Part shown: piece after piece, positions 1 through 38,243 of the stretch | Numbering within the stretch: the stretch's first letter is position 1 | Layout of the letters: every line of letters starts with the position of its first letter | NCBI GenBank assembly: GCA_965242545.1 | Contig: OZ251456.1 | Span: 316,076 to 380,075 of the forward strand | Reading direction: 5' to 3' | DNA from: a bacterium | Lineage (GTDB): Bacteria > UBA8248 | DNA: 64,000 bases | The notes under the pieces: model-generated | The model's database searches: none | What the model saw: only the letters and a program-made list of their open reading frames with translations | What the model was told of the DNA's origin: nothing | Translations under genes and position numbers: made by a program

Positions 1-178
1 ATTGCTAGCACGCCCGGCGCGGCCTGTCAAACCGGGGCGGGGCGGCGTCCGCCCGACGTTATTAACTTTCGGGCAACGCGATCGAAACGGGGCCGAAATA
101 ATTCCCGGATAGAAAAGAGAGGATTTTTTTCGTGAATCGAGGTTCTCGCGGGAGCCGAAACGCATCGGAGGAAGGGGC

Positions 179-13914: not shown

Positions 13915-15804
13915 ATGAAACAGCTCATCCTCACGAAAATCGATCCCGCATCGGACGAGCGCCAAGCCGAGCATCTGGGTCCCTGGTCGCTTTCAGACGC
14001 CCAGTTTTTCGAGTGGGAATGGGAAAAATACGGAATCAGGCGGGTATTGCAGGCCGAGGATATCCTGCCCGTTTCTCGCAGCCTGGAAAAGGTTTGTGAA
14101 TTTTACCTTCACCGCCTGGTCCGCCGGCAAAACGAAAGACACGGGCGCTCCTATTCCGCCCGATATTGGCGCATCTTGCTGATGCCGTGGCTTTGCAGGT
14201 TGGTCATGTGTTCTTTCGAGCGGTTTCTGCGAATCAGGAGTCGGATATCGAGCGGCGTTCCATATCTGGCGTATCTCTCGCCCCGGGATGAAGCCCCCTC
14301 ATCCATCGCAACGAGCCACTTTAATCGGATGATACTCGATGATCCGTTGAACCGCCTCATCTTCAGCAGATTTCTGCGCGCCTATGAACCCGAAGGATGG
14401 ATCATGCGGGACGGCGCGCCCGCCCCGCCGGATGAATATTTTTCCGTGAGCGATCAAAAAAAGACGTTCATACGGGACAACTATGGCGACCATGCCAAAG
14501 CCAGAAAATCGCAAAGAAAAATGGAAATATATCATTGGGCCAGCATTCTGGCCTGCAATTTGGGATGCGTCCAGTTTCATCGGGTTTATGGCCTGGGACT
14601 GCTGGACAGTCTGCATCTTTCTTTTCGCGTGATGCTTCGCAGCAGGAGACGCTGGAGGGATGCGGCGAGGTCGTTTCAGAAAATATCCGAAGCGGAAAAT
14701 AAAAATCTCTCGAAGGACGCCATGATTGAAGAGATCAAATCGATTCAGGGGATGAGTGCCGAAGAAGCGGAGATTTTCCTGCGGGTTCTGGATGGGTTGA
14801 TTGAAGAGACGATGCCGAAACAGTTCACGGAGTGTTTTCGGGAAAACGAGAAAAAGGCGCTGAGGAAAATAAGGGCGACGGCCCCCTGGACGGACGCGAT
14901 AGTCAGCGGGCTTGTGACGAGTGAAAACGACCCGTGGCGGTTTTATGCGGCCGGTCTCCTGGAGGATCGCCCCGTAAGGCTGATCGGCAGTCAGCACGGG
15001 GGATTGGTCGGCTTGGCCGAAGCGGCATCCTTTTACAATCTTGTGGAATACGAGACGGATGATCGGTTCGTATCGTGGGGCTGGGAGCGTCAGTCCGACT
15101 ATGAAGCAGCCGCGCCGGCTTCCTCTCCTCTTCTGTCGAAAATGAAGCGAGGCGCGAAGCGAAATTCATCCATCATTATGATAGGCTCCGCCTTGTTGGT
15201 CTATTCCGAATGGCTGCAAACGGGTTATCAGCCCGATGACATAGCGCGGCTTATGAAGAACAAAACAAGTTTCATCGAGCATCTGAAAAATGAATTGCGC
15301 TCCGCCTTGTGGTATCGGCCGCACGTCACCAAAGCGAGCGACCGCTATGACCGCTCCTATATGCAAGAAAGATACCCCGATTTGAAAATTTTGTCCGGGA
15401 AATTGCTAAACCATAAATCGAACCGGATGTCTTCCGCGTTGTCGCAATGCGGCGTTTGCGTTTTTGATGGGATGGGGGCTACGGAATTGTTCACGATGGC
15501 GGCGGAGATACCGGCCGTCTTTTTCTGGAACGAGAATGTGTGGCGGATCTCGCGTCAGGCGAAGCCCCATGTCGAAAAACTGTCGGCCGTGAATGTTGTT
15601 CACTCATCCCCGGAGAGCGCCGCGAGACACCTGAACGCCATCTGGCCCGATATCGATTCATGGTGGGAGGACGGCAGGACGCGGGAAGCCATCAGGGAAT
15701 TTGCGCATCGTTATTGTCGAAGCAGCGAAAACTGGCGTTCGGAATGGGTGGAATTGTTCTCTTCGGCGGATTCGGAATTATGGAAGCCAGCGAGCCGAAG
15801 ATGA
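13915..15804 (+). CDS. Large hypothetical protein (629 aa), possibly a glycan-locus transferase
   Basis: Long soluble ORF with no obvious catalytic motifs. First gene after tRNA-Glu and co-directional with the ABC exporter and sugar-nucleotide genes. From memory only, it resembles the ~600-aa uncharacterised transferase-like proteins of surface polysaccharide loci. Confidence 0.4.
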   Translation: MKQLILTKIDPASDERQAEHLGPWSLSDAQFFEWEWEKYGIRRVLQAEDILPVSRSLEKVCEFYLHRLVRRQNERHGRSYSARYWRILLMPWLCRLVMCSFERFLRIRSRISSGVPYLAYLSPRDEAPSSIATSHFNRMILDDPLNRLIFSRFLRAYEPEGWIMRDGAPAPPDEYFSVSDQKKTFIRDNYGDHAKARKSQRKMEIYHWASILACNLGCVQFHRVYGLGLLDSLHLSFRVMLRSRRRWRDAARSFQKISEAENKNLSKDAMIEEIKSIQGMSAEEAEIFLRVLDGLIEETMPKQFTECFRENEKKALRKIRATAPWTDAIVSGLVTSENDPWRFYAAGLLEDRPVRLIGSQHGGLVGLAEAASFYNLVEYETDDRFVSWGWERQSDYEAAAPASSPLLSKMKRGAKRNSSIIMIGSALLVYSEWLQTGYQPDDIARLMKNKTSFIEHLKNELRSALWYRPHVTKASDRYDRSYMQERYPDLKILSGKLLNHKSNRMSSALSQCGVCVFDGMGATELFTMAAEIPAVFFWNENVWRISRQAKPHVEKLSAVNVVHSSPESAARHLNAIWPDIDSWWEDGRTREAIREFAHRYCRSSENWRSEWVELFSSADSELWKPASRR

Positions 15805-15863
15805 AGAACCGACGGGCGCCTGCGCCCTCGCCATGCCGGAAAAGCAAAGGATAGAGAAATCGC

Positions 15864-17627
15864 ATGTTCGGCGATAAGCAAAAGAACATTCTCGCCGTCG
15901 CCCGGAATTACAAGCGGCTGTTGCTTTTATATTTTTTCGTTCTCGTTTCGGCGACGATGTTCGAGAGCATCGGCTTGGGCATGTTGATGCCCATTTTCCA
16001 AACGATACAAGGGATAGAAACAAACCATGTCCTTGAGGCGTACGCCAAATGGGGGCTTGGAATTATCGGCCTGGAGTATTCGTTCGCGAACCTTATCACG
16101 CTGTTCACAATCGCCATGCTGTTCAAATTCGCTTTGGTGGCGATTTCCACGCATCTCGCGCGGGTGCTGAGTTCGAGAATCACGTGCGATATGAGGGAAA
16201 AGGTTTTCAGAAACCTGATGAACCTTCCGCTCTCGTATTTTTATCAAAAAAAGACGGGCGATCTCATCGCCGTCCAATTCACCTCCACGCAGAATGCCGG
16301 CTTTCTTTTTGAACACATGATGCTCATCATCAACAGTATTTTTTTCTGCATCCTGTATCTGGCCATGAATCTGGCGGTCTCCTTTTCGCTCACCGTTCTG
16401 GTGGTAGGCTTGTTTTCCATCTCCTATCTTTTTCTCTTCCCGCGCTTTGAAAAGGGATATTTGAAGGGCGAAGAAGAGTCACGGGGCATGCAGGGCATCA
16501 ATTCCTATCTTCATGACGTCTTTTCCGGCGTCAAGACGGTAAAAGTGTTTGGAAATATCGCGCGCCACGTCGAACACTACAGAAGCCATACGAACGATTA
16601 TCGTCGGGTTTCCGTTGAGATCATGGACAACAAGATTATCGCCTCTCTGTTTTACGAGCCCCTGCTTTTTTTCTTCATGGTTCTTTGTCTGGTTTTCGCC
16701 GTCGTATTTCTGGAAATTCCCTTTGCGATTCTCGCCGTATTCCTGGTCATCTTTCTGCACGTTCTTCCCAAGCTGAAAGTGATCAACCACTACTGGCTCC
16801 TCGCCAATGAATTCGCTCCCCATCTGGAGAGGGTTCAGGAATACGCGGAAAACGGGAACAAGGAACATCCGACGGAAGGGCGCGCTTCCGTCGGCGAACT
16901 GAAAAAGAGCGTGCGATTCGAGAACGTGTCGTTCGCCTATCCGGGCTCCGGGGACGACGCGCTGAACGGGGTAAGCGCATCGGTCGAAAAAGGCGCGACG
17001 ACGGCGCTGGTGGGCTCCTCCGGAAGCGGGAAAACCACTTTCGTCGATCTGTTTCTGCGCCTTCATGATCCGACGCGGGGCGCCATTTACGTTGACGACG
17101 CGGACTTGAGGGACGTTTCCGTGGGCGAGTGGCGAAGCCTCATCGGGGTGGTGGAGCAGGACCCCTATCTTTTCAACGATACGGTCTACAACAACATTCT
17201 TTACGGAAATCCCGAAGCGGATGAAGCGCAGGCGCGGAAGGCGGCGGAAACGGCTTACGCCCATGAATACATCGAGGAATTGCCCGAAGGATACCGGACG
17301 GTCATCGGGAGTCGGGGGATCAAGTTGTCCGGCGGCCAGAAGCAGCGCCTCGCGCTCGCGAGAGCCCTGGTTCGCTCTCCCCGGATACTCGTGCTGGACG
17401 AGGCGACGAGTTCGCTCGACAGCGAATTCGAGCGTCTTATCCAGACCACCTTGCAGGATCTCGCCGGGCGGGTGACCATCCTGGTCGTCGCCCATCGTCT
17501 TTCCACCATCAAGAGCGCGGACAAGATTCTGGTTCTCGAGAATGGGCGAATCGTTCAGGAGGGGAGCCACGCCTCTCTCATGCGGGAGGAAGGGCGGTAT
17601 AAAAAGTTCCTGGCCTTGCAGGCGTAA
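15864..17627 (+). CDS. ABC exporter, fused permease plus ATPase (MsbA/lipid A-type family)
   Basis: N-terminal 6-TM domain, then Walker A GSSGSGKTT, signature LSGGQKQRLALARAL, Walker B ILVLDEATS and an H-loop. Confidence 0.85.
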   Translation: MFGDKQKNILAVARNYKRLLLLYFFVLVSATMFESIGLGMLMPIFQTIQGIETNHVLEAYAKWGLGIIGLEYSFANLITLFTIAMLFKFALVAISTHLARVLSSRITCDMREKVFRNLMNLPLSYFYQKKTGDLIAVQFTSTQNAGFLFEHMMLIINSIFFCILYLAMNLAVSFSLTVLVVGLFSISYLFLFPRFEKGYLKGEEESRGMQGINSYLHDVFSGVKTVKVFGNIARHVEHYRSHTNDYRRVSVEIMDNKIIASLFYEPLLFFFMVLCLVFAVVFLEIPFAILAVFLVIFLHVLPKLKVINHYWLLANEFAPHLERVQEYAENGNKEHPTEGRASVGELKKSVRFENVSFAYPGSGDDALNGVSASVEKGATTALVGSSGSGKTTFVDLFLRLHDPTRGAIYVDDADLRDVSVGEWRSLIGVVEQDPYLFNDTVYNNILYGNPEADEAQARKAAETAYAHEYIEELPEGYRTVIGSRGIKLSGGQKQRLALARALVRSPRILVLDEATSSLDSEFERLIQTTLQDLAGRVTILVVAHRLSTIKSADKILVLENGRIVQEGSHASLMREEGRYKKFLALQA

Positions 17628-17680
17628 GAATCTCAAGAGTTCGCTTGGAATCGTCGGATGAGGCATGAGGGCTTCAAAAA

Positions 17681-18475
17681 ATGAAGGGGAAGCGGAATCG
17701 CGTAGCTGCCTTGTCGTTGGGAAGGAAGGGAAGTGCGGGCTTTCCCGGCAAGAATACCTATCCGGTTCTCGGGAAGCCGCTTTCTTATTATCCCTTGAAG
17801 GCGGCGCTGGATGCGCCCGGCGTCGATGCCGTCTATCTTTCGACGGACGATGAGGAATTGATGGCGCTCGCCCGCGGCATGGGCGCCCGGGTGATCGTCC
17901 GCCCCCCGGAGCTGGCGACAAAAGAGGCTCTTAGCGAAGACGCCTATGCGCACGGGTATCGAGTCATTACGGATGAGCAGAAGAAACTGGGCGGGGAGAT
18001 GGAGTTCTTCGTGCTTCTCTATTGCAACGCGCCCATGATCCTGCCTGAAATGATTGAGGAGGGAATTCGGGTGTTGCGGGAGAACCCGTCCTACGATTCC
18101 GCCGTCACCGTTTCCTGCTATAATATGTGGAGTCCGCTCCGCGCGCGGAAGATTGAAGAGGACGGCCTTTTGCGTCCCTTCGTGCCGTTCGAGGCCTTTG
18201 GCGATCCGGAGACGTTGAGTTGCGACCGGGATTCACAGGGGGATTCGTGGTTTGCGGACGCGGGGGCGGCTATTGTTCGCCCTCGGTGTTTTGAAAACAT
18301 CAATAGCGGTCTATTGCCTTTCAAATGGATGGGACGGAAAATTTACCCGTTGCGGCAATGGGGAGGAGTGGACGTTGACCATGAATGGCAAATGCCGCTC
18401 GTGAAGCATTGGCTGATGGCGCACGGGTTCGACGCCGAAGGGCGCAGGAAGTCTCCGTTTGGTGATGAATCGTGA
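17681..18475 (+). CDS. CMP-sugar cytidylyltransferase (NeuA/KdsB acylneuraminate cytidylyltransferase family)
   Basis: N-terminal ALSLGRKGSAGFPGKN matches the CTP-binding loop of CMP-NeuAc/CMP-Kdo synthetases. 264 aa. Confidence 0.7.
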   Translation: MKGKRNRVAALSLGRKGSAGFPGKNTYPVLGKPLSYYPLKAALDAPGVDAVYLSTDDEELMALARGMGARVIVRPPELATKEALSEDAYAHGYRVITDEQKKLGGEMEFFVLLYCNAPMILPEMIEEGIRVLRENPSYDSAVTVSCYNMWSPLRARKIEEDGLLRPFVPFEAFGDPETLSCDRDSQGDSWFADAGAAIVRPRCFENINSGLLPFKWMGRKIYPLRQWGGVDVDHEWQMPLVKHWLMAHGFDAEGRRKSPFGDES

Positions 18476-18487
18476 GGTTCCGTTTGC

Positions 18488-19213
18488 ATGAATGTTTTGG
18501 TGACGGGCGCGAGTTCGGGCATCGGGCTGTCTATCCTGCGTCTTTTGCTCGACAAGGGAGACAGCATTTTCGCTCATTACAGAAAGAGCAGCCCCGAGTT
18601 GGAAAAGCTCGTCGAAGAATACGCTCCCCAAGGGCGCTTGCGGGTTCATCGGGCCGATTTTGAATATCCGGAGCAGGTGGAATCCCTGATGGACGCCTGC
18701 GACGCGGAGTGGGGGAGACTGGACGCGCTCGTCAACAACGCCGGCGCGGTAATCGAGGAAGCCAGGCTGGAGGAGATAGACCTGAAGCTTTGGAGGCGCG
18801 CCTTCGCGGTCAACGTGGAGGCCCCCTTTTTGCTGTCCCGGTGGGCGTTCCTGAAGATGGGGGAAGGGGGAGGGAAAATACTCAATATCGGCTCGATTTC
18901 CGCGAAATACGTTGGTGGGGAAACGACTTTTCACTACGGCGTCTCCAAGGCGACGGTGGACGCGCTGACCCTGGGTTTCGCCCGCCGGGGCGCGGACAAG
19001 GGCATTTGCGTCAACGCCGTCCGGCCGGGAGTGACGGATACGGACGCGCATCAGAAATACACGCCCGGCAAGGACATGACGGAAAGAATCTCCATGGTTC
19101 CGATGAAGAGAATGGCGCGGCCTGATGAAATCGCCTCACTGTCCGTTTATTTGCTCTCGAAGGAAGCGGACTACATTACGGGGCAAATCGTATCCATCGC
19201 GGGGGGAGATTGA
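18488..19213 (+). CDS. SDR-family short-chain dehydrogenase
   Basis: TGASSGIG Rossmann motif, NNAG, and a YxxxK-type catalytic region. 241 aa. Confidence 0.8.
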   Translation: MNVLVTGASSGIGLSILRLLLDKGDSIFAHYRKSSPELEKLVEEYAPQGRLRVHRADFEYPEQVESLMDACDAEWGRLDALVNNAGAVIEEARLEEIDLKLWRRAFAVNVEAPFLLSRWAFLKMGEGGGKILNIGSISAKYVGGETTFHYGVSKATVDALTLGFARRGADKGICVNAVRPGVTDTDAHQKYTPGKDMTERISMVPMKRMARPDEIASLSVYLLSKEADYITGQIVSIAGGD

Positions 19214-19216
19214 TTC

Positions 19217-20179
19217 TTGGGCGGGAAATGGAAAGTCGTTGTTTTCGGCGGTTCGGGCTTCATCGGCAGCCACTTGGCCGATGCGCTGTCTGATGAAGGA
19301 CATGAGGTTCTTCTGTTCGACTTGAAGCCCTCCGCGTATTTGCGGTCGGATCAAAGGATGTATGTCGGCGATATTCTGAACACCGAGCAAGTGCGTGAAG
19401 CGGTGAAGGGCCATGACGCCGTCTATAATTTCGCGGGCATCGCGGATCTTGATGACGCGAAAACAAAAGCCGCTCAAACTGTCGCCCAGAACGTCCTGGG
19501 AACTGTGAACATACTTGACGCGGCGCGCAGTGCGGGCGTCAAACGCTATATGCACGCCAGTTCCATATACGCTTACAGCGATCGAGGCGGTTTCTACCGG
19601 TGCAGCAAGCAGGCGGCGGAACTCTACATAGAAGAATACCAGAAGCAGTATGGGCTGAATTATGTGATTTTTCGCTTCGGAACCATATTCGGCACTCGGG
19701 CCGATGAAAGAAACAGCGTCCATCGCTATCTTCGGCAGGCGCTTTCCGAGAAGCGCATCGAAAGCTTCGTCGCCGGCGATGAGATTCGTGAATACGTCAA
19801 TGTAAAGGACGCGGCTCGCCTTTGCGTTCAGGTGCTTGCTGAGAATCCTGCCAGCCAGCACCTGATAATCACCGGCCCCTATCCCATGCGCACGAGAGAG
19901 TTTCTTGAAATGATAAATGAAATCGTGGGGGGAGGCGTCGAATTGAAGTTCGACGAGAATGGCCAGTCGGGCCACTATCGGATGACGCCCTACACGTTCG
20001 AGCCTAAAATCGGCCGGAAGCTCGCCATCAACGAGTATATGGACATGGGAGGAGGATTGCTGGAGTGCCTGCGCGAGATTTATGAGGATATGCAGGCGAC
20101 TTCACCCGGGAAAACGGCAGCCTTCGCGGACCCGCCTCCCCCGTCTTGTTCCCGTCCGCAGGCGGGGGGATCAGAATGA
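19217..20179 (+). CDS. NAD-dependent epimerase/dehydratase family protein
   Basis: GGSGFIGSH Rossmann motif. 320 aa, extended SDR. TTG start as in the track. Confidence 0.75.
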   Translation: MGGKWKVVVFGGSGFIGSHLADALSDEGHEVLLFDLKPSAYLRSDQRMYVGDILNTEQVREAVKGHDAVYNFAGIADLDDAKTKAAQTVAQNVLGTVNILDAARSAGVKRYMHASSIYAYSDRGGFYRCSKQAAELYIEEYQKQYGLNYVIFRFGTIFGTRADERNSVHRYLRQALSEKRIESFVAGDEIREYVNVKDAARLCVQVLAENPASQHLIITGPYPMRTREFLEMINEIVGGGVELKFDENGQSGHYRMTPYTFEPKIGRKLAINEYMDMGGGLLECLREIYEDMQATSPGKTAAFADPPPPSCSRPQAGGSE

Positions 20180-21000
20180 TAAGCGTCGTCATAACGGCCT
20201 ACAACGCCGAGGAATATGTTGCGGACGCCGTGAAAAGCATTCTGGCGCAGACGGAGGTCGATCTGGAATGCGTCATCGTCGATGACGGCTCGACGGACGA
20301 TACCGTCCGCGTATTGACGGGCTTCGGCGATCCTCGAATTCGTCTCATCGAAGCGGGACGAATCGGGCGCGTGAGAGCGCTCAACCTCGGCGTCCGCGAG
20401 AGCCGGGGGGAGTATGTCGCCATCCAGGACGCGGATGACTTGTCCCATCCCAAAAGACTGGAAATTCAAAGGCTGGCGATGGAGCAATCGCCGGATTATT
20501 GCGCCGTCGGTTCGCCCCCGTTCGCCTTTTACGCCAACGGGAGGCCCGATTGGCCCTCATTCGGGCCGGATGAGAAAAATCCTTCGTTAGCGGATATCGG
20601 AAGAAAACTCATGCTTTCCAATGCCGTCAACCACACGTCGCTGTTCGCCAGAAGCGAGGCGATGAAAAAAATTCAGGGCTACGATGAGAAATTTCGCATG
20701 ATTCATGATTTCGATTTGCTTGTCCGAATGTATGAAAATGGAATGAAGGTCGGGTTTTTGAAAGTTCCCGTGGCGGCGAAAAGAATTCATGTGGAGCAGT
20801 TTTTCGAGCGAAATACGAGGCTCCGGGACGTGTTTGACGGCATCCTTGTGCAAAGCAGGGCGATTCGCGCCTGTGGAGGCGGTCTCCCGTATCGCGTCCT
20901 GCTGCCGTTCTGGTTTTCGTATCGCTTGCTGCCGCCCAAAGCGCGCATGTGGATCAGGGCCAAGGGAGGCTATTTTTCCTGCGCCGACGAGCTGAAATAA
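20176..21000 (+). CDS. Family 2 glycosyltransferase
   Basis: ISVVITAYNAEEYV...VIVDDGSTDDT...QDADD is the GT2 DxD architecture. Start at ATG 20176. Confidence 0.8.
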   Translation: MISVVITAYNAEEYVADAVKSILAQTEVDLECVIVDDGSTDDTVRVLTGFGDPRIRLIEAGRIGRVRALNLGVRESRGEYVAIQDADDLSHPKRLEIQRLAMEQSPDYCAVGSPPFAFYANGRPDWPSFGPDEKNPSLADIGRKLMLSNAVNHTSLFARSEAMKKIQGYDEKFRMIHDFDLLVRMYENGMKVGFLKVPVAAKRIHVEQFFERNTRLRDVFDGILVQSRAIRACGGGLPYRVLLPFWFSYRLLPPKARMWIRAKGGYFSCADELK

Positions 21001-21157
21001 TCCACCCGTCTTTTGGAACTTTCTCGAAACCGCCGGCGCTCCGCCCTCTTGAAGATTTTTGCGTGGATTCGCCCGCTCGGTCAGTAAAATTCCACATGTT
21101 TCAAGGTTTGCGGTTTCATGGGCGGAGCCTCGAAAGACAAAAGGTTGTGGTTGAAGC

Positions 21158-23142
21158 ATGTTGTTGTTCGTTTTTGATGAGAGTTTCTCGGATGAAGAAG
21201 CGCCGGACGGGTTCCGGGGCGGGCGCGATTCGATCTCCCTGTTCGCCTTGACGGGAAACTGGAGGCTGGCGAGGCGTCTCGAGCGAGCGCTTCTGAAGCG
21301 CGGCCTGAAGCAGGTCGCCGCGCTGAATTCGGCCAGGCTCGTCGAGCGGGAAATCGAAGCCATTTGCCGCGAACTCCCAAAATGGTCCGCCGAGCGGGGG
21401 GACTCGCGCATCCGCGATGTCTCCGTTCGGCGTTTTTTCATGACGAGCGAGGACGGGATGAGCGGCTTCTGGCTGGGGCCCATTTCGGAGAAAAATCCCC
21501 TGAAAACGGATACGTTCCTCCGGCTGGCCCAGGCGCTTGCGGTTCAAGGAGAACTGCGAACCGGAAAATACGACGGGGTGGCCGTAGCCGTAAAGAACGG
21601 CAACCTCCACAAGTCCATCAGGCGCATGGCGGATGCTTTCAGCGTCCCGTTTCATGTTGTGGAAAAGCCCGGGACGCTCGCTGTCCAAAATATGAGGTCG
21701 CTCCTGCCGGGCATGTTGTCGCTCGCGCTCGCGGGCTGGCTGCAGGCCTGCTGGAAGGCCATGCTCGCCAAGGCGGTGATGGGCTTTTCCCGCCGCAGAG
21801 AGATTTCCACGCCCCCCCCGTGTTCGTCAGCTATTTTCCATATCTGAACGAGGATGCGGAAGGCGCGTTTCGCAACAAGTATTTCGAGCCGGTTCAGAAT
21901 ATCTGCCCGAAGCGAAAAGAGCGCATTTTCTGGCTTTTGATGTTCACGCATATCCAGGGCGCCACTTTTCTGGAATCCTTGAAAATCGCGAAGAAATTCA
22001 AGAAAAACGGAGAACGGCTCGCGTTCTTCGATGAGTTTTTCGGCTTCCGGGAAGCTGTCGGAGCGTTTTATTTATGGACAAGGCAGTTGGGAAGATATTT
22101 CTTTCTTGCGAGAAACTTCTCGGAAGAACGGATGTGCGGAGATCTGTTCCCCGTTGAATGCTATCCCCTCGTCAGAGATTTATGGCGCCGGTCGTTTTGC
22201 GGCGTCGAGGCCGTTCGCGGGTTGATCCAGTATAAAGCGTTCAGGAGGTTTTTCAGGGACTCGGGCGGCGCCTCTCAATGCGTGTATGCGTGCGAGATGC
22301 AGGCGTGGGAAAAGGCGCTGAATAAAGCGATAGAACGCGAAAGGCCGGAACTGGAGTCTGTCGGCTTCATTCACACGGTCATCTCCCGGCATTATGTGTT
22401 TTACGCTCACCATGAATCGGAGATAGAATCATCCCGTCTTGCCGATGGCTTGCCGCTCCCCGGGAAAATCGCCGCCAATGGCGCGGCGGCGCACGCTCTC
22501 CTCTCCGAGTGGGGCTATCCGGGCCTTTGCAAGGTGGAGGCGATACGCCAGTTGCCGCTGGCTGCGAGGATGAACGATCCGCGGCCCTTGGAGAAGGGGA
22601 GCAAGCCGACCTTGCTGGTTGCGGGAACCAGCGTCCAGGAAGAAACGAAGTCCCTGTTGCTGTTGCTTTCGGGGGCTTGTCCGCTCGCTGGCGAATGGGA
22701 CGTTTGGCTGAAGGGACATCCGGCAATGCCCATGGATTCATTGCTGAAGGGCTTGGGGATTCATCCGGCGGCGCGCCGTTGGGAGATCAAGGAAGGGGAT
22801 ATCAATACGCATCTTGAAAAGGCCGATGTCGTCCTCGTGCCCACGAGCGCCGTATCGGTGGACGCTCTTGCTTTCGGATGCGAGGTTTTCACGCTCGTTT
22901 TCAGTTCCGGATTCACCATGAACGTGTTGTCGGGATTTGAAGACTATTACCATTCCGTGAGCACGCCCGATGAATTGAGGGAAAAACTGGAGAACTACCT
23001 GAAAAACGGCTCTCGAAAGGGACTGGATGAGAAAAGGGATTTCGTGCGAAGCTACTGGAACCTTGACGCTCAGCTCCCGGGATGGCGAAGGCTGTTGAAC
23101 GTGGAGGCGAGCGATAAGGACAGCCTTGGCCCAGGTGGTTGA
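21158..23142 (+). pseudogene. KpsC/KpsS-like capsule polysaccharide biosynthesis protein (Capsule_synth-like, putative beta-Kdo-type transferase), broken by a frameshift at a C8 homopolymer
   Basis: ORF 21158..21847 (frame 2) and the C-terminal 430 aa of ORF 21364..23142 (frame 1) join at the C8 run 21812-21819; one extra C would fuse them into an ORF of about 660 aa. The C-terminal part has a GT-B-like block with a KGHP motif (LLVAGTSVQEE...WLKGHPAMP...VLVPTSAVSVDALAFGCEV), as in the KpsC/KpsS family. The first 150 aa of the frame-1 ORF are Arg-rich out-of-frame junk. Confidence 0.45.
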
Positions 23143-29379: not shown

Positions 29380-30960
29380 CTATTCTCGGCGAGCGGTTTT
29401 TCGCGCCGTCAGGCAAAAAGCCGTCAGCGCCCAGTAGAGACAGGCGGTTTTGGGAAACGAAAAAATGGTCTCGGTTCCGGCCTGAAGGAGAACGCCGGCG
29501 CAGCCGGCCCACGCCCACGCTTCCGGGGCGCCCGGCGAGAGCCTCCCCTCTCTTCTCAGATGAAGAAGCGCCTCCCATAATCCCCCCATCATCAGGCAGA
29601 GGAAGAGGACGCCCCCCAAAAGTCCCGTTTCGACAAAGGCTTGCAGGTAAGAGGAGTGGGCCGAGAGCGGCGGAAGGCTTCCGTATATCGTCCACGGAGG
29701 ATGGTCTATTCCCCAAGGCTGGAGAAGGGCGCTCTTCGCCCAGGAATCGGGGGAGAGTATGCCGTAGAACTTGGGATCATCCATCCTCCACAGCGGCACT
29801 TTATCCAGTCCGTTGTTTTCCAGCTGATCTTTCTCCGCGTCTCGAGACGCCTCGGGAAAGAGGCCGCTCCCGTAGCCCGCCAAGGGGCGATCGGAGATCA
29901 TTTTCCCGGCGATTCGATAGATATAGACCCTCGGCAGCACCGATGTCTCCACGAATCCGCTGTGGGTGGCGACGGCGGCGCCGGTCGCCAGGATGAAGGA
30001 AGCGCACGCGAAGAGAAGGAGAAGGCGGGCTTTCGCCGGAGAAACATGAGCGGAAATCGTTTTCGTCAATCGCCCCCTGTTGAGGCAGAGGAGCGTCAGA
30101 AGGAAGAGGGCGAGGCTCAGCAGTCCTCCCAGACTCCCGCTCTTCCACAGGACGCCCAGGTGCGCGGCGCCGACGATGAACGCCGCCGGGCGGGAGAAGC
30201 GGAAAATCAAAGGGACCGCGGCGGCCGACAAAAGCAGGCAGGCGGCGAGAAAGTTCGGATTTCCGATGGGCCCGGGCCGGAAATAAAAGAAAAAGCGGGA
30301 TGACAGGGGAAACGGCGAATACAGCAAATCCGCGCGGAAGCTCGAATGCCACCCCCATAGCTTCCATGGAATGTGAAATGCCAGATTCTGGAGGATGACG
30401 GCCGCCATCATGATGAGGCCGCCGCAGAGGACAGCTTTCAGAATCCGCTTGCGGGAGGTTTCCTCCCCGCAAACCTCCAGAAAAACGAGGAAGGTGACGA
30501 AGTAGGCGACGTTTTCGGCGAGGCCCCAGAATTGCTTCGAGAGTGGCGCGCCGCTCAGCCACGCCGCCGCGAGGCTCCAGGCGAGGTAGGCGAGCCAGAG
30601 GTGGAAGGTGATCGGTCTGCTTTTCAGGAGCGGGGCCCTTCCGCCTTTGAGGACGCGCCACCCGAACCCGGCGGCCAGCGCGGCGAGCGCTAGTTTGTCG
30701 TATGAAACGCTCCTCCCGGTCTCGCCGAAGGCGACCTCGACGTTGACGAGCGGGTTCAGAAACAGGAAAAGCGCGCCGCCGGCGGCGAGGCTGTAGAAGC
30801 CCGTCGCGGCGACGGCCGCCGCGCCGATCGCCATGACGCCAATCGCCGCGAATTCAGGGTTCATCGTGAAGGGGCGCCTCGGGGAGCGAGCGGCTGAACG
30901 GAATCCAACGCTTTTGGGTGGACATGAAACAGCATATCGCATAATTTTCAGACTCGGCAA
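29380..30960 (-). CDS. O-antigen ligase/Wzy-like membrane protein (second copy, divergent)
   Basis: Multi-TM protein with HSSYLQAFVETGLLGGVLFL, the Wzy_C/O-antigen-ligase signature. Alternative start at 30864 (MNPEFAAIG). Confidence 0.65.
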   Translation of the reverse strand: MPSLKIMRYAVSCPPKSVGFRSAARSPRRPFTMNPEFAAIGVMAIGAAAVAATGFYSLAAGGALFLFLNPLVNVEVAFGETGRSVSYDKLALAALAAGFGWRVLKGGRAPLLKSRPITFHLWLAYLAWSLAAAWLSGAPLSKQFWGLAENVAYFVTFLVFLEVCGEETSRKRILKAVLCGGLIMMAAVILQNLAFHIPWKLWGWHSSFRADLLYSPFPLSSRFFFYFRPGPIGNPNFLAACLLLSAAAVPLIFRFSRPAAFIVGAAHLGVLWKSGSLGGLLSLALFLLTLLCLNRGRLTKTISAHVSPAKARLLLLFACASFILATGAAVATHSGFVETSVLPRVYIYRIAGKMISDRPLAGYGSGLFPEASRDAEKDQLENNGLDKVPLWRMDDPKFYGILSPDSWAKSALLQPWGIDHPPWTIYGSLPPLSAHSSYLQAFVETGLLGGVLFLCLMMGGLWEALLHLRREGRLSPGAPEAWAWAGCAGVLLQAGTETIFSFPKTACLYWALTAFCLTARKTARRE

Positions 30961-30983
30961 GTTTCATCCACGGAGACCGCCGC

Positions 30984-32432
30984 ATGAGCGACGAGAGAGA
31001 AAGAGGGGGAGCGTGGCCGGGGGGGGGGGCGACTCCGGTGATCACGCGAAGCGCGGGCATCCCGGTAAAAGGGCGCCTCGGGAAACTGGCGTCATCCGCG
31101 CAGGATCGCTCCTTCATACTGCTCGATGTTCTCTCGCTCATCCTCGCGGAGCGGCTGACGCGCTTTTTGTGGGGCGGTCTCGACGGCCTGCTGTTCTTCC
31201 GTCCTGACGTCGTCTGGCTGTCCGCGCTGAGTTTTTGCCTTTTCTGCTTCTGCGACCTCTACGCGTACATTCGCTACGTTCGCGTCTTCCTCTCCTCCTG
31301 GCTGGTGTTCAAGGCTTTGTTCATCAGTTTCATCCTGCGCGAGGCGCTCGACGGCGTTTTCTTCGGGTTTCAGGAGGGCGTCTGGTTCTGGCTTTCGCTC
31401 TACGCCGCGACCTTCGCGGTTGTTATGCTGGCGCGCCTGATTTTCAAGAAAATCGTCCTGAAGGGCGCGCTGGAATGCAAAATCGTGGTTTTGAAGACCG
31501 GGACCGTCAAATCCGACGTCTCCTCCATGTTGTCGGAGGAGAACGACCGGAACCTGGAGATCGCCGGGGAGATTGCGGCGGACGACGACCCCGCCCGGAT
31601 TGCCGGGCGGCTTGGGGAGGCCCTGGATTCCAGCCCCGACGTTCGGTTCGTGGTGTGCGAGCAGGGCTATCTCGATCAGTCGGGCGCCGCCGCGATCCTC
31701 GGCGCGTGCGCGGCGCGTCATGTGTCATGCGTCGCTTGGCCGGGTTTCGTCTCGTTGATGGAGGGACGGATTCCGTTGGAGAGCGTTTCCGAAGCCAGAA
31801 ACTTCTTCGACTCGGATTCCCTATATCGGGTGCCGAGCCGGAGGCAGCGTTTTTGCAAACGGGCGCTCGATCTGGCGTTCAGCATCGCGGCCCTGGTCTT
31901 GTTCGCCCCTTTTGGCCTCCTCATCGCCGTTCTGAGCAAGCTCTCGAGCGAGGGGCCTGTCTTTTATTCCCAGACCCGCGTCACCCAGTTCGGCAGATTG
32001 TTCACCGTCCATAAATTCCGGACGATGAACGTGGATGCGGAACAAGCGGGGAAAGCGGAGTGGAGCAAGGCGAATGATCAGAGAGTCTATCCGTTCGGGC
32101 GCCTGCTCCGCCGCTACCATCTCGATGAGTTCCCGCAGTTCTGGAACGTCGTCAAGGGGGAGATGAGCATTGTCGGCCCCAGACCGGAGAGGCCCGAATT
32201 TTTGAAAGTTTTGCGGGATCGTTATCCGGAATTTCAATACCGCGAACTCGCTCCGGCGGGCATCACGGGCTGGGCGCAAATTCAGCAAGGATACGTCAAC
32301 AGGATTGAAGATTCTAAAACAAAGCTGGAATATGATTTATACTACATTCTGAACTACTCTTTTTATATGGACGTTCAGGTGATATTCCTCACCGCGCTCA
32401 CGTTCTTGCGCCTGCGCGGCCACGGCGTCTAG
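30984..32432 (+). CDS. Polyprenyl-phosphate glycosylphosphotransferase (bacterial sugar transferase, WbaP/EpsB-like priming enzyme)
   Basis: C-terminal catalytic domain KRALDLAFSIAALVLFAPFGLLIAVLSKLSSEGPVFYSQTRVTQFGRLFTVHKFRTM...DEFPQFWNVVKGEMSIVGPRPERPEF. N-terminal TM helices. A G11 tract at 31009-31019 lies within or just before the start (alternative GTG at 31030). Confidence 0.85.
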   Translation: MSDERERGGAWPGGGATPVITRSAGIPVKGRLGKLASSAQDRSFILLDVLSLILAERLTRFLWGGLDGLLFFRPDVVWLSALSFCLFCFCDLYAYIRYVRVFLSSWLVFKALFISFILREALDGVFFGFQEGVWFWLSLYAATFAVVMLARLIFKKIVLKGALECKIVVLKTGTVKSDVSSMLSEENDRNLEIAGEIAADDDPARIAGRLGEALDSSPDVRFVVCEQGYLDQSGAAAILGACAARHVSCVAWPGFVSLMEGRIPLESVSEARNFFDSDSLYRVPSRRQRFCKRALDLAFSIAALVLFAPFGLLIAVLSKLSSEGPVFYSQTRVTQFGRLFTVHKFRTMNVDAEQAGKAEWSKANDQRVYPFGRLLRRYHLDEFPQFWNVVKGEMSIVGPRPERPEFLKVLRDRYPEFQYRELAPAGITGWAQIQQGYVNRIEDSKTKLEYDLYYILNYSFYMDVQVIFLTALTFLRLRGHGV

Positions 32433-32434
32433 GT

Positions 32435-33607
32435 CTAGGCGCCGTCTCCCGCTTTTCGAGATTCGCCCGACGGCGCTTCCGCGTTGCTCGCCCGCTCATA
32501 CAGCGCGAGAATGCTTCCGATGACAATGTCGTCGGAAAACTCCTCTTCCACGATCCGCCGCCCGGCCGCGCCCATCTCGCGCCTGAGCTCCGCGTCCCGC
32601 GCCAGCGTTCGGATGGCGTCGGCCAGGCGCCCGGCGTCCCGGGGCGGGACGAGAAGGCCGTTCACCCCGTCTCTCACAATCTCCCGGCAGCCGGGAACAT
32701 CGGTCGCCACGATCGGGCGTCCGCGCGCCGCCGCTTCCAGCAAGCCTCTCGGGAGTCCTTCCCGGTAGGAGGGCAAAACGGCGACGTGGCAGCTCCCCCA
32801 CGCCTCGCGCATGTCCTCCCTGTAGCCCCACCATTCGACCTCGCCGCTCTCGCGCCAGCCGGCGAGCGCGCTCTCCGGGATGGAGGAGGGGTTTTTGGGG
32901 TCGGGCGCTCCCGCCAGCGCCATGCGAACCTCCACGCCCTCCGCCTTCAGCAGGCGCGCGGCCTCCACGAATTCGTTCACTCCCTTGTCCGCGAGCATCC
33001 GGGAGGCGAGAACCGCCAGCGGCGCGCCGGGAGGCTCGGGCGCCGGGCGAAAAAATTGAACGTCAACGCCCGAGCCGCGAACGAGGGTCAGCCGGGATTC
33101 GTCGGGAAGCGCGCTTTTCAGGAGCGTCGCCCCGTCGTCTTCGTTCTGGACGATCGCGTGGGTGTTTTTCCGCCGGTGAAAGGCTTTGAGCAGGAGCAGG
33201 ACGATTTTCTTCAGCGCGCTCATTTTCAGCGAGCCCGGAGCGAACAGCGAACCCAGCCCCACGAATGAGTTGACGACGACGGGCGTTCGCGTCAGCCAGG
33301 CGGCGAGCGAGCCGAGCGGCAGGTTTCGCACGCCGATGTGATGGGCGATGCGCGGCCGATGCTTCCGGTAGAGGCGAACGAGTTTGACGAGCGCCCGAAA
33401 CTCCGCCCACGGGCTGACGCCCTCCCCGTTTTGGCCCAGGACGCAGCACTCGAAGCCCTCCGCGCGGATCCGCTCCGCGCGCGCTCCGCCGATTCTCGCG
33501 CATACGACGACGCGGTAGCCCGCTTCCCTGGCGGCCAGAGCGAGGGCGCGCCTGTGGCTCAGAAAATATCCGTCCTCGAGGTCCAGCAAAAGCAGCGTTC
33601 CGCTCAT
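32435..33607 (-). CDS. GT4/GT-B glycosyltransferase
   Basis: 390 aa, C-terminal E-x7-E-like region (GLPRGLLEAAARGRPIVATDVPGCREIV), group-1 glycosyltransferase layout. Confidence 0.75.
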   Translation of the reverse strand: MSGTLLLLDLEDGYFLSHRRALALAAREAGYRVVVCARIGGARAERIRAEGFECCVLGQNGEGVSPWAEFRALVKLVRLYRKHRPRIAHHIGVRNLPLGSLAAWLTRTPVVVNSFVGLGSLFAPGSLKMSALKKIVLLLLKAFHRRKNTHAIVQNEDDGATLLKSALPDESRLTLVRGSGVDVQFFRPAPEPPGAPLAVLASRMLADKGVNEFVEAARLLKAEGVEVRMALAGAPDPKNPSSIPESALAGWRESGEVEWWGYREDMREAWGSCHVAVLPSYREGLPRGLLEAAARGRPIVATDVPGCREIVRDGVNGLLVPPRDAGRLADAIRTLARDAELRREMGAAGRRIVEEEFSDDIVIGSILALYERASNAEAPSGESRKAGDGA

Positions 33608-36525: not shown

Positions 36526-37806
36526 TTAGCGGCGGTAGGTATGGGGAAGCCTGAAGCCCCGGGAGCGGAGAAATTCAAAAAGCCGGATGAGGCCGTTCGC
36601 CCCCAGCAGGGCGCGTCCCAGCAGGAGCCCGGCGAGCGGCATCGTCATGCGGCGCCCGGCGCTCCGCCGGATGGCTCCCCGGAACGATTCCGCGTCGCCC
36701 GCGCGCAGATAATGAAACGCCTGACGCGCGTAGTGAACGGCCAGCGCGGAGTCCGCCAGCTTTCTGGGGATATGGTACATCTCGCAGATTCGCTCCACGA
36801 CGGAGATGAGCGCGGGTATCCATACAAGGGGGGAGTTGCCTTCCGTGATGCTCTGTTTGTTTATTCTGTAGAAGCCGCAGACTTTTTCGACGTGCTCAAA
36901 TTCAAAATCATGGGTGATTCTGAGCCACAGGTCGTAGTCCTCGCCGATGCGCAGCGAGGGGTCGAACACGCCAGCCTTCTGAAGGGCGGAACGCCGCACC
37001 ATCGCCATGGCGGTGCATATGAAATTCGCGTGGAGCAGCTTCTCGAATACCCTTCCGGTGGGAACGTTGCCCCGGAGCATAACCTTTCCGCCCAGGGGGT
37101 GATCGCCCAGGCATTGAAAGTTGCAGGCGACGATGCCGCAGTTCGGGTTCGCCTTCATCGCCTCTGCCTGGCGCTCCAGCTTGTCGGGAAGCCATAAATC
37201 GTCCGCATCCAGAAAGGCGATGAATTCTCCCGTTGATCGGGCGATGCCGACGTTGCGGGCGACGGCGGGCAGGCCGCTGTTCTCCTGCCGGAAATAGCGC
37301 AGCCTCTCGTCGTCAAACGATTCGACGACCTCCTTCGTGTCGTCGGTCGAGCCGTCGTCGATGACGTGGACGTCGAAATCCCGAAACGTCTGCTCCAGGA
37401 CGGAGCGAATCGCCTCGCCGATGAAGGCGCCCTGGTTGTAGGCGGGAATCACGACGCTTACGGCGGGCATCCGCTTCTCCTGTCGGGCTTCCATTCGGCG
37501 CGGGAAGAGCCTTCGCGCGGGTTCCGGGAGCCGCTCCGCCTCTCGTTCGCGGCGCTCGCCGATTTCGCGCCAGACGGGCACCCACAGATCATCGGTCGTC
37601 CCCTTCAGGGAGGCGACCGCGCTTTTGAGCTCCTCGACGTCTTCGATCATGTGGAGCCATCGCCGGTAGAAGCCCCCGTGTTCCACGGCGAAGGGGTCTT
37701 CGCTGGGAGCGAAAGGGAGATGCCCGGCGGGGGGATCGCTCATCGCATCATCCTCCCGGGCCTCCCGGGGGCGGCTTTGAAGCAGCCACGTGGCGGGGGG
37801 AATCAT
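36526..37806 (-). CDS. Family 2 glycosyltransferase
   Basis: VSVVIPAYNQGAFI...VHVIDDGSTDDT...LDADD GT2 core, preceded by an N-terminal extension of about 110 aa. The true start may be internal. Confidence 0.75.
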   Translation of the reverse strand: MIPPATWLLQSRPREAREDDAMSDPPAGHLPFAPSEDPFAVEHGGFYRRWLHMIEDVEELKSAVASLKGTTDDLWVPVWREIGERREREAERLPEPARRLFPRRMEARQEKRMPAVSVVIPAYNQGAFIGEAIRSVLEQTFRDFDVHVIDDGSTDDTKEVVESFDDERLRYFRQENSGLPAVARNVGIARSTGEFIAFLDADDLWLPDKLERQAEAMKANPNCGIVACNFQCLGDHPLGGKVMLRGNVPTGRVFEKLLHANFICTAMAMVRRSALQKAGVFDPSLRIGEDYDLWLRITHDFEFEHVEKVCGFYRINKQSITEGNSPLVWIPALISVVERICEMYHIPRKLADSALAVHYARQAFHYLRAGDAESFRGAIRRSAGRRMTMPLAGLLLGRALLGANGLIRLFEFLRSRGFRLPHTYRR

Positions 37807-38243
37807 GCGCCCGGCGCGGCGTCCAGGTGTTCGTAGATCTCAACGATCATCCCGCCCTTGACAACGCCGTCGCTCAGGTGGCCGGTCAGGACTTTTTCCG
37901 GTTCGCCCGGGCCGCCGCTGATGGCCATGTGCACGTGGACGTAGGGCCGGGGCTCCTCCCACCGCTCATCGCCCAGCGCCGCGGGCGCCTCGGCGGGCCA
38001 GGTGATGTTCCCCAGGGCGATGAGCTCGCGCCAGCCCTCGAAGCGGAGGCGGTCGACGTCGTAGCCGTCCATGCTCCTGAACCCCGAGATCATCTTCGTT
38101 TCGGAGAGCGCGCCGATGAGAAAAACCGAACCCGCGCGGATGTTTTTCTCCTTCACGAATCGGGTCAGGTTCGCGTAAAAATGGTCGCCCGCCTCCAGCG
38201 TGACGCGAAAGATGCGGCCCAGTTTTTTTTCTTCCACTTTCAT
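37803..38243 (-). CDS. PPC/DUF296 domain protein
   Basis: 146 aa, resembles PPC (DUF296) domain proteins (FRVTLEAGDHFYANLTRFVKEKNIRAGSVF...VHVHMAISGG). ATGA overlap with the upstream GT2. Confidence 0.5.
   Translation of the reverse strand: MKVEEKKLGRIFRVTLEAGDHFYANLTRFVKEKNIRAGSVFLIGALSETKMISGFRSMDGYDVDRLRFEGWRELIALGNITWPAEAPAALGDERWEEPRPYVHVHMAISGGPGEPEKVLTGHLSDGVVKGGMIVEIYEHLDAAPGA

What the first reader, a model, noticed from the sequence alone, without database searches (positions are those of the whole stretch)
31009..31019. G11 tract at the 5' end of the EPS priming glycosylphosphotransferase gene: candidate phase-variation site
Eleven consecutive G lie at codons about 11-14 of the ATG-30984 ORF (WPGGGA), or immediately upstream of an alternative GTG start at 31030. 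Length changes would shift the frame or alter start context and switch the whole downstream EPS pathway ON or OFF. Long poly-G/C tracts at the 5' end of surface-polysaccharide genes are well-known contingency loci in other bacteria. A tract of this length is unusual even for a GC-rich genome.
Basis: partly seen in the sequence, partly recalled or inferred. Interest (0 to 1): 0.5.

Follow-up and report, generated by a model that had tools for sequence, protein, structure and literature searches.

The report
Hypervariable poly-G switch in EPS primer gene
A run of eleven G's at the start of the gene that begins exopolysaccharide synthesis sits at the same spot in related uncultured marine bacteria but differs in length (8 to 13 G) even between near-identical strains, so it is very probably a slippage-prone switch that changes how the enzyme is translated.

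Summary
The G11 tract is real but lies at 31019..31029, ten bases right of the stated coordinates. The alternative GTG start is at 31038, not 31030. The ORF 30984..32432 is a WbaP/WcaJ-type polyprenyl glycosylphosphotransferase (TIGR03025, PF02397).

By composition alone the tract is unremarkable: 0.07-0.13 such runs are expected per 64 kb. Comparison with relatives is what matters. In 10 other independent sequences (72-95% nt identity), a pure G run sits at the orthologous position with length 9, 10, 11, 12 or 13. An eighth length, G8, is inferred from protein calls in a lineage whose 438-aa enzyme core is otherwise 100% identical. Flanks are conserved.

The tract lies between a conserved upstream ATG with its own Shine-Dalgarno (SD) ribosome-binding motif and a conserved in-frame A/GTG. 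All three frames occur among the relatives:
- Fusion, giving the long form (the window's state).
- A 16-18 codon leader ORF whose TGA overlaps the internal start.
- A 73-89 codon overlapping ORF.

Best reading: a homopolymer contingency locus giving three translational states of the priming enzyme, rather than a clean ON/OFF switch. Switching within a population and any phenotype remain untested. It is a new member of a known kind. A second tract (C8, 21812) coincides with a frameshift in another surface-carbohydrate gene.

The parts
31019..31029 (+). G11 homopolymeric tract, the hypervariable element
   Evidence: Read directly. The orthologous tract is G9-G13 in L081-L090 and L093-L095. It is the only homopolymer >=8 in most of those loci.
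30972..30986 (+). Upstream translation start: SD-like GGAG (30972..30975), 8-nt spacer, ATG (30984..30986)
   Evidence: Read directly. The ATG and a GGAG/GAGG motif 6-8 nt upstream are conserved in all 11 tract-bearing sequences. Both are absent from the tract-less ortholog L091.
31038..31041 (+). Internal in-frame start GTG (31038..31040, codon 19) overlapped by TGA (31039..31041) in the -1 frame
   Evidence: The equivalent codon is GTG in clade 1 and ATG in clade 2. In L091 it is the called start (MITES...). With G10 or G13 the leader ORF ends at this TGA.
30984..32432 (+). Priming polyprenyl glycosylphosphotransferase gene. Long form 482 aa; short form from 31038 would be 464 aa.
   Evidence: PF02397 E=4.7e-60; TIGR03025 299.8 bits against a cut-off of 295.55. 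The product is identical to database protein P0121, from a 3,087,465-bp contig.
30865..30983 (.). Divergent intergenic region between the Wzy_C gene and the transferase gene. Blocks are conserved across clades, including a -10-like CATAAT at 30940..30945 (TATAAT in L081-L084).
   Evidence: Alignment A2. The consensus scan found no complete sigma-70 promoter, so the promoter assignment is inference only.
29380..30864 (-). Divergently transcribed Wzy_C (O-antigen ligase/polymerase-like) membrane protein gene
   Evidence: PF04932. The same neighbour is present in L084-L089 and L093.
32435..33607 (-). Convergent GT4 glycosyltransferase gene. It shows that the transferase gene is monocistronic.
   Evidence: PF13692 and PF00534. 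The arrangement is conserved in all related loci.

Best explanation
The G11 run is a slippage-prone homopolymer (a simple-sequence contingency locus). It lies between two conserved translation starts of the exopolysaccharide priming enzyme.

Gain or loss of single G's during replication resets the frame of the upstream ATG (30984) relative to the enzyme. This gives three heritable but reversible configurations:

1. Tract 3n+2 in this clade (G8, G11, G14; the window's state). The upstream ATG is fused in frame and a 481-483 aa long form is made.
2. G7, G10 or G13. The upstream ATG opens a 17-19 codon leader ORF whose TGA overlaps the internal GTG (GTGA). The 464-aa short form is then made by termination-reinitiation coupling, or by direct initiation using the G run as an SD-like element 8 nt upstream.
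3. G9, G12 or G15. The upstream ORF reads 73-75 codons across and beyond the internal start in the wrong frame. This should occlude the internal start and give low or no enzyme.

This enzyme makes the first lipid-linked sugar, so its level gates the whole polymer. A population would therefore hold cells with different amounts of surface polysaccharide.

Shown: the tract, the two starts, the frame consequences, and the length polymorphism among and within lineages.
Inferred: the slippage rate, which starts are used, the expression level of each state, and the phenotype.
For: 1. Orthologous tract with conserved flanks and variable length. Window G11, L081 G11, L082 G10, L083 G9, L084 G11, L085 G12, L086 G13, L087 G10, L088 G12, L089/L090 G9, L093-95 G9.

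2. All three frames occur among 11 independent sequences: 6 fused, 3 with the leader ORF ending at the overlapping TGA, 2 with a long overlapping ORF.

3. Polymorphism within a lineage. P0124, P0126, P0127 and P0129 share a 100% identical 438-aa core, yet were called with N-termini of 464, 438, 493 and 479 aa. DNA of three contigs from at least two samples gives G9+TCCT (out of frame). The in-frame siblings read VVGGGPM, which fits G8+TCCT. P0132 and P0133 also have identical cores, and P0131 differs from them at 2 residues.

4. Between loci, the tract is the recurrent indel that is not a multiple of 3. The coding-region indels listed are multiples of 3.

5. Lengths reproduce across independent assemblies: L093, L094 and L095 agree, and L089 and L090 agree.

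6. Selection acts on the DNA run, not on glycine. GGG is 25.5% of Gly codons, and none of 15 other poly-Gly runs in the window genes is all-GGG. Yet the run stays pure across lineages that are about 27% diverged.

7. The upstream ATG with its SD motif co-occurs with the tract in 11 of 11 sequences. Both are missing in L091, which starts at the internal-start equivalent.

8. In Neisseria, inter-strain length polymorphism of G/C tracts >=8 nt is the accepted in-silico predictor of phase variation, and it was validated by deep sequencing (PMC5084427).
Against: - No read-level data, so switching within a clonal population is not shown. Fixed differences between strains would look the same.
- The conserved internal start means none of the three states is necessarily OFF, and the effect size could be small.
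- The excess of fused frames (6 of 11 against 1/3 expected) is not significant (P=0.12, or 0.08 for 6 of 10), and the sequences are phylogenetically related.
- All sequences are metagenome assemblies, where homopolymer lengths are the most error-prone feature.
- No promoter was detected by the consensus scan, so it is not shown that the transcript includes the upstream ATG.
Confidence: 0.6

Rival explanations
1. The enzyme always starts at the internal GTG (31038). The G run is only an SD-like stretch in the 5' untranslated region. Its length drifts neutrally because the distance from its 3' end to the start codon never changes. The upstream ATG is unused or irrelevant, so there is hypermutability but no switch.
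For: - The family profiles begin only at about residue 44, so the first 18 codons are not part of the conserved enzyme.
- The tract-less ortholog L091 starts at the equivalent ATG.
- Clade 2 has ATG there, 4-5 nt after the tract. Clade 1 has GTG 8 nt after it, which is within SD spacing.
- All three frames are tolerated.
- The leader peptide sequence is only weakly conserved.
Against: - The upstream ATG and a correctly spaced GGAG/GAGG are conserved in every tract-bearing lineage, across about 27% nucleotide divergence.
- An SD motif needs about 5 G, yet 8-13 uninterrupted G are maintained. A neutral run should be broken by substitutions.
- Ribosomes loading at a good upstream SD and ATG would read across the internal start, so the frame should matter.
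Confidence: 0.25
2. RNA polymerase slips on the G run, so every DNA length yields a mixture of mRNA frames. The tract then acts as a constitutive diversifier or attenuator, and DNA length changes are buffered rather than acting as a switch.
For: - Transcriptional slippage on long homopolymers is established in bacteria (general knowledge).
- All three DNA frames persist in nature, as expected if frame errors are partly rescued.
Against: - Slippage is best documented for A/T runs. PMC5084427 notes the alleged higher propensity of A/T than of G/C repeats for transcriptional slippage.
- No transcript data are available.
Confidence: 0.07
3. The length differences are sequencing or assembly errors at a homopolymer. 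The true tract is a fixed, ordinary poly-glycine coding stretch.
For: - Homopolymer length is the main error class of long-read consensus, and it is also troublesome for short reads (general knowledge).
- The window's own assembly has a frameshift at another homopolymer (C8 at 21812), which could be an error.
Against: - Identical lengths are recovered by independent assemblies of different samples: L093, L094 and L095; L089 and L090.
- Lengths span five values in DNA.
- The all-GGG codon choice is atypical for this genome.
- Other indels between the same contigs are rare, and in coding sequence they are multiples of 3.
Confidence: 0.05

Closest known systems
Homopolymeric G/C-tract contingency loci in surface-glycan genes of Neisseria meningitidis and Campylobacter jejuni (e.g. 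lgt genes, siaD, capsule and LOS transferases)
   Same: - A G/C run of >=8 nt in the 5' part of a surface-polysaccharide gene.
- Slipped-strand length changes shift the reading frame.
- Length is polymorphic between closely related strains while the flanks stay conserved. This is the criterion used in PMC5084427.
   Different: - The host here is an uncultured marine bacterium, probably sponge-associated, and not a pathogen.
- The gene affected is the priming phosphoglycosyl transferase, not a decorating or polymerising transferase. My literature searches found no paper describing this.
- A conserved in-frame start just downstream of the tract makes a full OFF state doubtful.
Haemophilus influenzae lic1A/lic2A repeat switches with several initiation codons (Dixon et al. 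2007, J Bacteriol 189:511, cited in PMC6479036; the Dixon paper itself was not readable here)
   Same: A repeat tract near the 5' end, combined with more than one usable initiation codon. Repeat number therefore selects between different expression levels rather than simply ON or OFF. (From the title of that paper and general knowledge.)
   Different: - The Haemophilus tract is a tetranucleotide repeat (CAAT), not a homopolymer.
- In Haemophilus the alternative starts all lie upstream of the repeat, in different frames. Here one start is upstream and one is downstream of the tract.
- Here one state creates an overlapping stop/start (GTGA/ATGA), which Haemophilus lacks.
[quoted passage not shown]
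   Same: - C-terminal Bac_transf catalytic domain.
- Profile match over residues 73-476, above the curated cut-off.
- Location in a Wzy/Wzz-type polysaccharide locus.
   Different: The N-terminal 18-44 residues lie outside the family profile. No member with a hypervariable 5' homopolymer turned up in my searches.

Membership tests
Simple-sequence-repeat contingency locus (phase-variable gene) | Homopolymer of about 8 nt or more in the 5' coding region or translation-initiation region of a gene | tested here: met
   G11 at 31019..31029, at codons 12-16 of the long ORF and 8 nt upstream of the internal GTG.
Simple-sequence-repeat contingency locus (phase-variable gene) | Tract length is polymorphic among closely related strains while the flanks are conserved | tested here: met
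   G9-G13 across 10 related independent sequences. G8 against G9 is inferred within a lineage that has a 100% identical 438-aa core. L087 and L088 are 98.1% identical and carry G10 and G12.
Simple-sequence-repeat contingency locus (phase-variable gene) | Length change alters the reading frame or the initiation context of the gene | tested here: met
   In-silico series G7-G15, and the natural variants, give fusion, a short leader ORF with an overlapping stop/start, or a long overlapping ORF.
Simple-sequence-repeat contingency locus (phase-variable gene) | High-frequency, reversible switching within a clonal population (read-level or colony-level heterogeneity) | not testable with these tools
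   Only consensus assemblies are available, with no reads.
Simple-sequence-repeat contingency locus (phase-variable gene) | Expression level and phenotype change with tract length | not testable with these tools
   The organism is uncultured and no expression data are available.
EPS polyprenyl glycosylphosphotransferase (NCBIfam TIGR03025; Pfam PF02397) | Score above the curated cut-off of the family models | tested here: met
   TIGR03025 299.8 bits against 295.55. PF02397 202.6 bits against 27.
EPS polyprenyl glycosylphosphotransferase (NCBIfam TIGR03025; Pfam PF02397) | N-terminal transmembrane helices plus a central domain preceding the catalytic domain (large-PGT architecture) | tested here: inconclusive
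   The profile alignment covers residues 73-476 of 482, and the WbaP profile covers 45-479. Hydrophobic segments are visible from residue 45 onward. No topology prediction or structure model was run.
XrtA/PEP-CTERM-system sugar transferase EpsB_2 (TIGR03013) | Score above the curated cut-off | tested here: not met
   243.9 bits against 393.35. The neighbouring amidotransferase also falls below the TIGR03108 cut-off, 593 against 816.9. JGI labels for distant homologs say 'PEP-CTERM system associated', but membership is not shown for this locus.
lic1A/lic2A-type multi-start repeat switch | Several initiation codons upstream of the repeat in different frames, giving graded expression | tested here: not met
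   Here there is one start upstream and one downstream of the tract. The logic is similar but the layout differs.

The most novel reading that the evidence does not exclude
The tract, the upstream ATG with its SD motif, and the overlapping stop/start form a selected three-state translational switch on the priming enzyme: long form, leader-coupled short form, or occluded. It has been maintained across species-level lineages of uncultured, probably sponge-associated bacteria. It belongs to a wider homopolymer-based contingency strategy for surface glycans in these genomes, since the C8-associated frameshift at 21812 would be a second locus caught in its OFF state. This would extend contingency loci from pathogens to marine animal symbionts, and it would place the switch at the committed first step of a polysaccharide pathway.
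Probability: 0.3. Interest if true: 0.65.

Novelty: new member of a known kind. Interest (0 to 1): 0.5.

Why it matters
Homopolymer contingency loci are textbook for a few host-adapted pathogens. They are rarely documented in uncultured environmental or symbiotic bacteria.

Here public metagenome assemblies alone show a tract kept pure at one position across diverged lineages, while its length changes between near-identical strains. The affected gene commits lipid carrier to a surface polysaccharide.

If the switch is functional, populations of these bacteria carry standing heterogeneity in their outer coat. That matters for phage escape and for recognition by a filter-feeding host.

There is also a practical point. 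Gene callers give this enzyme four different N-termini (438, 464, 472 and 479-493 aa) depending on tract length. Annotation and pangenome clustering of such genes are therefore distorted.

Tried and rejected
- **Genome-contig scan with alignment A1.** The patterns chosen (KLEYDLYY, EGPVFYSQ) were generic.
- **Metagenome-contig scan.** I searched with the conserved downstream flank ATCGCYCCTTCATRCTGCTYGA. The single hit is an unrelated gene, so the JGI set holds no usable relative.
- **Exact look-up of the window protein.** It returned nothing, although the identical P0121 exists.
- **Rfam over the whole window.** It found only one tRNA, so there is no riboswitch or leader RNA family at the site.
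- **RNA folding of 30950..31075.** The fold is less stable than shuffles (z=+1.94), so a structure-based regulator is rejected.
- **Sigma-70 scan of 30700..31200.** No promoter was found, so the transcription start is unknown.
- **Literature searches.** I looked for a phase-variable priming glycosyltransferase and for contingency loci in sponge symbionts. No matching case turned up.
- **BioSample search.** A search for the BioSample prefix did not confirm the origin of the samples.
- **Rejected reading: ordinary poly-Gly linker.** Codon usage and the frame-shifted natural variants argue against it.
- **Rejected reading: PEP-CTERM EpsB membership.** The score is below the cut-off.

Full report
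**Observation**

The window has eleven consecutive G at 31019..31029. This is ten bases to the right of the stated 31009..31019. The in-frame GTG is at 31038 (codon 19), 8 nt after the tract, not at 31030.

The tract is the longest homopolymer in the window. Composition alone makes it only mildly unusual. A first-order model expects about 0.13 G or C runs of >=11 per 64 kb, and the observed run-length spectrum extrapolates to 0.07. The case therefore rests on comparison with relatives.

**The gene and its setting**

ORF 30984..32432 (482 aa) carries a C-terminal Bac_transf domain (PF02397, E=4.7e-60). It passes the curated cut-off of TIGR03025, the EPS polyprenyl glycosylphosphotransferase subfamily (299.8 against 295.55 bits). 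It falls below the cut-offs for WcaJ, WbaP and the PEP-CTERM EpsB_2 model. The family profiles start to align only at residues 44-73, so the first 18-44 residues are not part of the conserved enzyme.

The gene sits in a polysaccharide locus running from about 13.9 to 37.8 kb:
- LIC12162-family transferase
- ABC exporter
- cytidylyltransferase
- short-chain dehydrogenase (SDR)
- epimerase
- GT2
- TIGR04326-family protein
- oxidoreductases
- Wzz-like protein
- two Wzy_C proteins
- the priming transferase itself
- GT4
- Asn-synthase-like amidotransferase
- methyltransferase
- GT2

The transferase gene is divergent from a Wzy_C gene (29380..30864, minus strand) and convergent with the GT4 gene. 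It is therefore monocistronic, and any effect on the pathway would be biochemical, not polar.

**Relatives**

The database holds ten close representatives at 57-92% identity. Their clusters contain further members. P0121, from a 3,087,465-bp contig, is identical to the window protein. I fetched the DNA of 14 related contigs, L081-L091 and L093-L095.

Every relative except the most distant one (L091, 57% identity) has a pure G run at the same position, and the flanks align well.

| Group | Sequence | Tract |
|---|---|---|
| Clade 1 (86-95% nt identity to the window over 1.56 kb) | window | G11 |
| | L081 | G11 |
| | L082 | G10 |
| | L083 | G9 |
| | L084 | G11 |
| Clade 2 (72-75% nt identity) | L085 | G12 |
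| | L086 | G13 |
| | L087 | G10 |
| | L088 | G12 |
| | L089 = L090 | G9 |
| | L093 = L094 = L095 | G9 |

- In pairwise locus alignments, the tract is the recurrent indel that is not a multiple of three. The coding-region indels listed are multiples of 3.
- It is the only homopolymer >=8 in most of these loci.
- The same length is recovered by independent assemblies of different samples (L093/L094/L095; L089/L090), which argues against random homopolymer miscalls.

**Variation within a lineage**

P0124, P0126, P0127 and P0129 share a 100% identical 438-aa core, yet they were called with N-termini of 464, 438, 493 and 479 aa. The three contigs that encode P0124 read GTC-G9-TCCT-ATG, which puts the upstream ATG out of frame. 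The in-frame siblings read VVGGGPM, which fits GTC-G8-TCCT-ATG. That step is an inference from the protein sequence.

P0132 (438 aa) and P0133 (464 aa) also have identical cores, and P0131 (481 aa) differs from them at two residues. L087 and L088 are 98.1% identical and carry G10 and G12.

**Anatomy around the tract**

Upstream, the ATG at 30984 is preceded by GGAG at 30972..30975 with an 8-nt spacer. An ATG with GGAG or GAGG 6-8 nt upstream is conserved in all 11 tract-bearing sequences and is absent from L091.

Downstream, a start-capable codon in frame with the enzyme is present in all 12 lineages: GTG 8 nt after the tract in clade 1, ATG 4-5 nt after it in clade 2, and ATG in L091, where it is the called start. 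The next codon is always ATC or ATT, so the sequence reads (A/G)TGA.

The natural variants and an in-silico series G7-G15 in the window give three states:

| State | Tract length in the window's clade | Outcome | Natural examples |
|---|---|---|---|
| Frame 0 | G8, G11, G14 | Upstream ATG fused to the enzyme; long form of 481-483 aa | window, L081, L083, L084, L086, L087 |
| Frame 2 | G7, G10, G13 | Leader ORF (17-19 codons in the window series; 16-18 in the natural variants) whose TGA overlaps the internal start | L082, L088, L089/L090 |
| Frame 1 | G9, G12, G15 | Upstream ORF of 73-89 codons running across the internal start in the wrong frame | L085, L093-L095 |

An overlapping stop/start is the classic arrangement for translational coupling (established knowledge). 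A long overlapping upstream ORF would be expected to interfere with initiation at the internal start (inference).

**Selection on the DNA run**

GGG makes up 25.5% of glycine codons in the window genes, and none of 15 other poly-Gly runs is all-GGG. Protein-level selection for Gly3-4 would therefore not keep an uninterrupted run of 8-13 G across lineages that differ at about 27% of surrounding nucleotides. An SD function for the internal start would need only about five G. I infer that selection acts on the run itself.

The excess of fused frames (6 of 11) over the one-third expected is not significant (P=0.12), and the sequences are not independent.

**Other checks**

- Rfam finds nothing at the site.
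- The RNA from 30950 to 31075 folds less stably than shuffled controls (z=+1.94). This fits an open initiation region and argues against a structured regulator.
- The sigma-70 consensus scan finds no promoter in 30700..31200. A conserved -10-like CATAAT/TATAAT at 30940..30945 is visible in the alignment. The transcription start remains unknown.

**Interpretation**

The best reading (confidence 0.6) is a homopolymer contingency locus that sets three translational configurations of the priming enzyme, and hence the amount of polysaccharide made.

The main rival (0.25) is that translation always starts at the internal codon, and the tract is a neutrally drifting SD-like stretch. The profile boundaries, L091 and the tolerance of all three frames favour this rival. 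The conserved upstream ATG with its SD motif and the purity of the run argue against it. Transcriptional slippage (0.07) and sequencing artefact (0.05) are less likely.

Length variation and frame effects are real, but a strict ON/OFF switch of the pathway is doubtful because of the conserved internal start.

**Comparison with known systems**

The mechanism class is the slipped-strand homopolymer switch known from Neisseria and Campylobacter surface-glycan genes. The criterion applied here is length polymorphism among related genomes at a G/C tract of >=8 nt. That is the one used, and validated by deep sequencing, for N. meningitidis in PMC5084427.

The graded logic resembles the Haemophilus lic genes, where several initiation codons combine with a repeat tract (Dixon et al. 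2007, cited in PMC6479036; I could not read that paper). The layout here differs, with one start on each side of the tract.

My searches found no report of such a tract in a priming phosphoglycosyl transferase or in sponge symbionts. Absence from that library is weak evidence.

**Organism and habitat**

- The ammonium transporter at 179..1570 matches the 'marine subtype' model.
- Its best named relatives are MAGs labelled Nitrospinota (76%) and Candidatus Tectomicrobia (71%).
- Most related contigs carry the label PANK22-1 with BioSamples SAMN1229xxxx. This fits the Caribbean sponge metagenomes of Pankey et al. 2022 (BioProject PRJNA555077). It is an inference from the label, not a verified link.

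**Verdict**

This is a real hypervariable homopolymer at a functionally sensitive position, and a new member of a known kind. Interest is 0.5.

Noticed in passing
window 21812..21819 (C8), ORFs 21158..21847 and 21364..23142 (+): A TIGR04326-family surface-carbohydrate biosynthesis gene in the same polysaccharide locus is split by a frameshift at a C8 run. The N-terminal part matches profile positions 18-130 in one frame, and the rest matches 183-601 in another. C9 or C6 would restore a 660-661 aa ORF. The window genome's own database entry is a truncated 440-aa call (P0261). Relatives at 63-88% identity are intact at 660-665 aa and read STAPR or STASR where the window reads STPPP. This could be a second contingency locus in its OFF state, a pseudogene or a homopolymer assembly error.
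   Followed up: partly
window 3335..3343: A G9 run lies in the middle of ORF 2320..4278 (652 aa), which has weak MauG/di-heme peroxidase-like matches at residues 362-562. The ORF is intact across the run. Orthologs were not compared.
   Followed up: no
window 38223 (T8), 56913 and 58318 (C8): Further homopolymers of 8 nt. T8 lies about 20 nt inside the 5' end of the minus-strand PCC-domain gene 37803..38243. C8 at 58318 lies about 195 nt inside the acyl-CoA dehydrogenase gene 57371..58513. They were not examined further.
   Followed up: no
L093, L094, L095 position 108..116: A second G9 run lies inside the upstream Wzy_C-family gene of this lineage. Its length is identical in all three contigs. 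There is no equivalent run in the window's copy.
   Followed up: no
window 13915..23142: The left part of the polysaccharide locus has a clearly lower third-position GC than the rest of the window (0.62-0.74 against about 0.75-0.93). This part holds the LIC12162-family and TIGR04326-family genes, the ABC exporter, the cytidylyltransferase and a GT2. The pattern suggests a horizontally acquired block.
   Followed up: no
P0004/L084 and P0006/L086, residues about 350-420 of the transferase: P0004 (clade 1) carries a segment (MRVNSKPPAGTMSTK...GPRAEHVKSLEIAKAHYP) that resembles the clade 2 protein P0006 rather than its own clade. This suggests recombination within the catalytic domain between lineages.
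   Followed up: no
window 32421..32437: A GTCTAG hexamer is duplicated at the stop codon of the transferase gene relative to L081. This is where the gene abuts the convergent GT4 gene.
   Followed up: no
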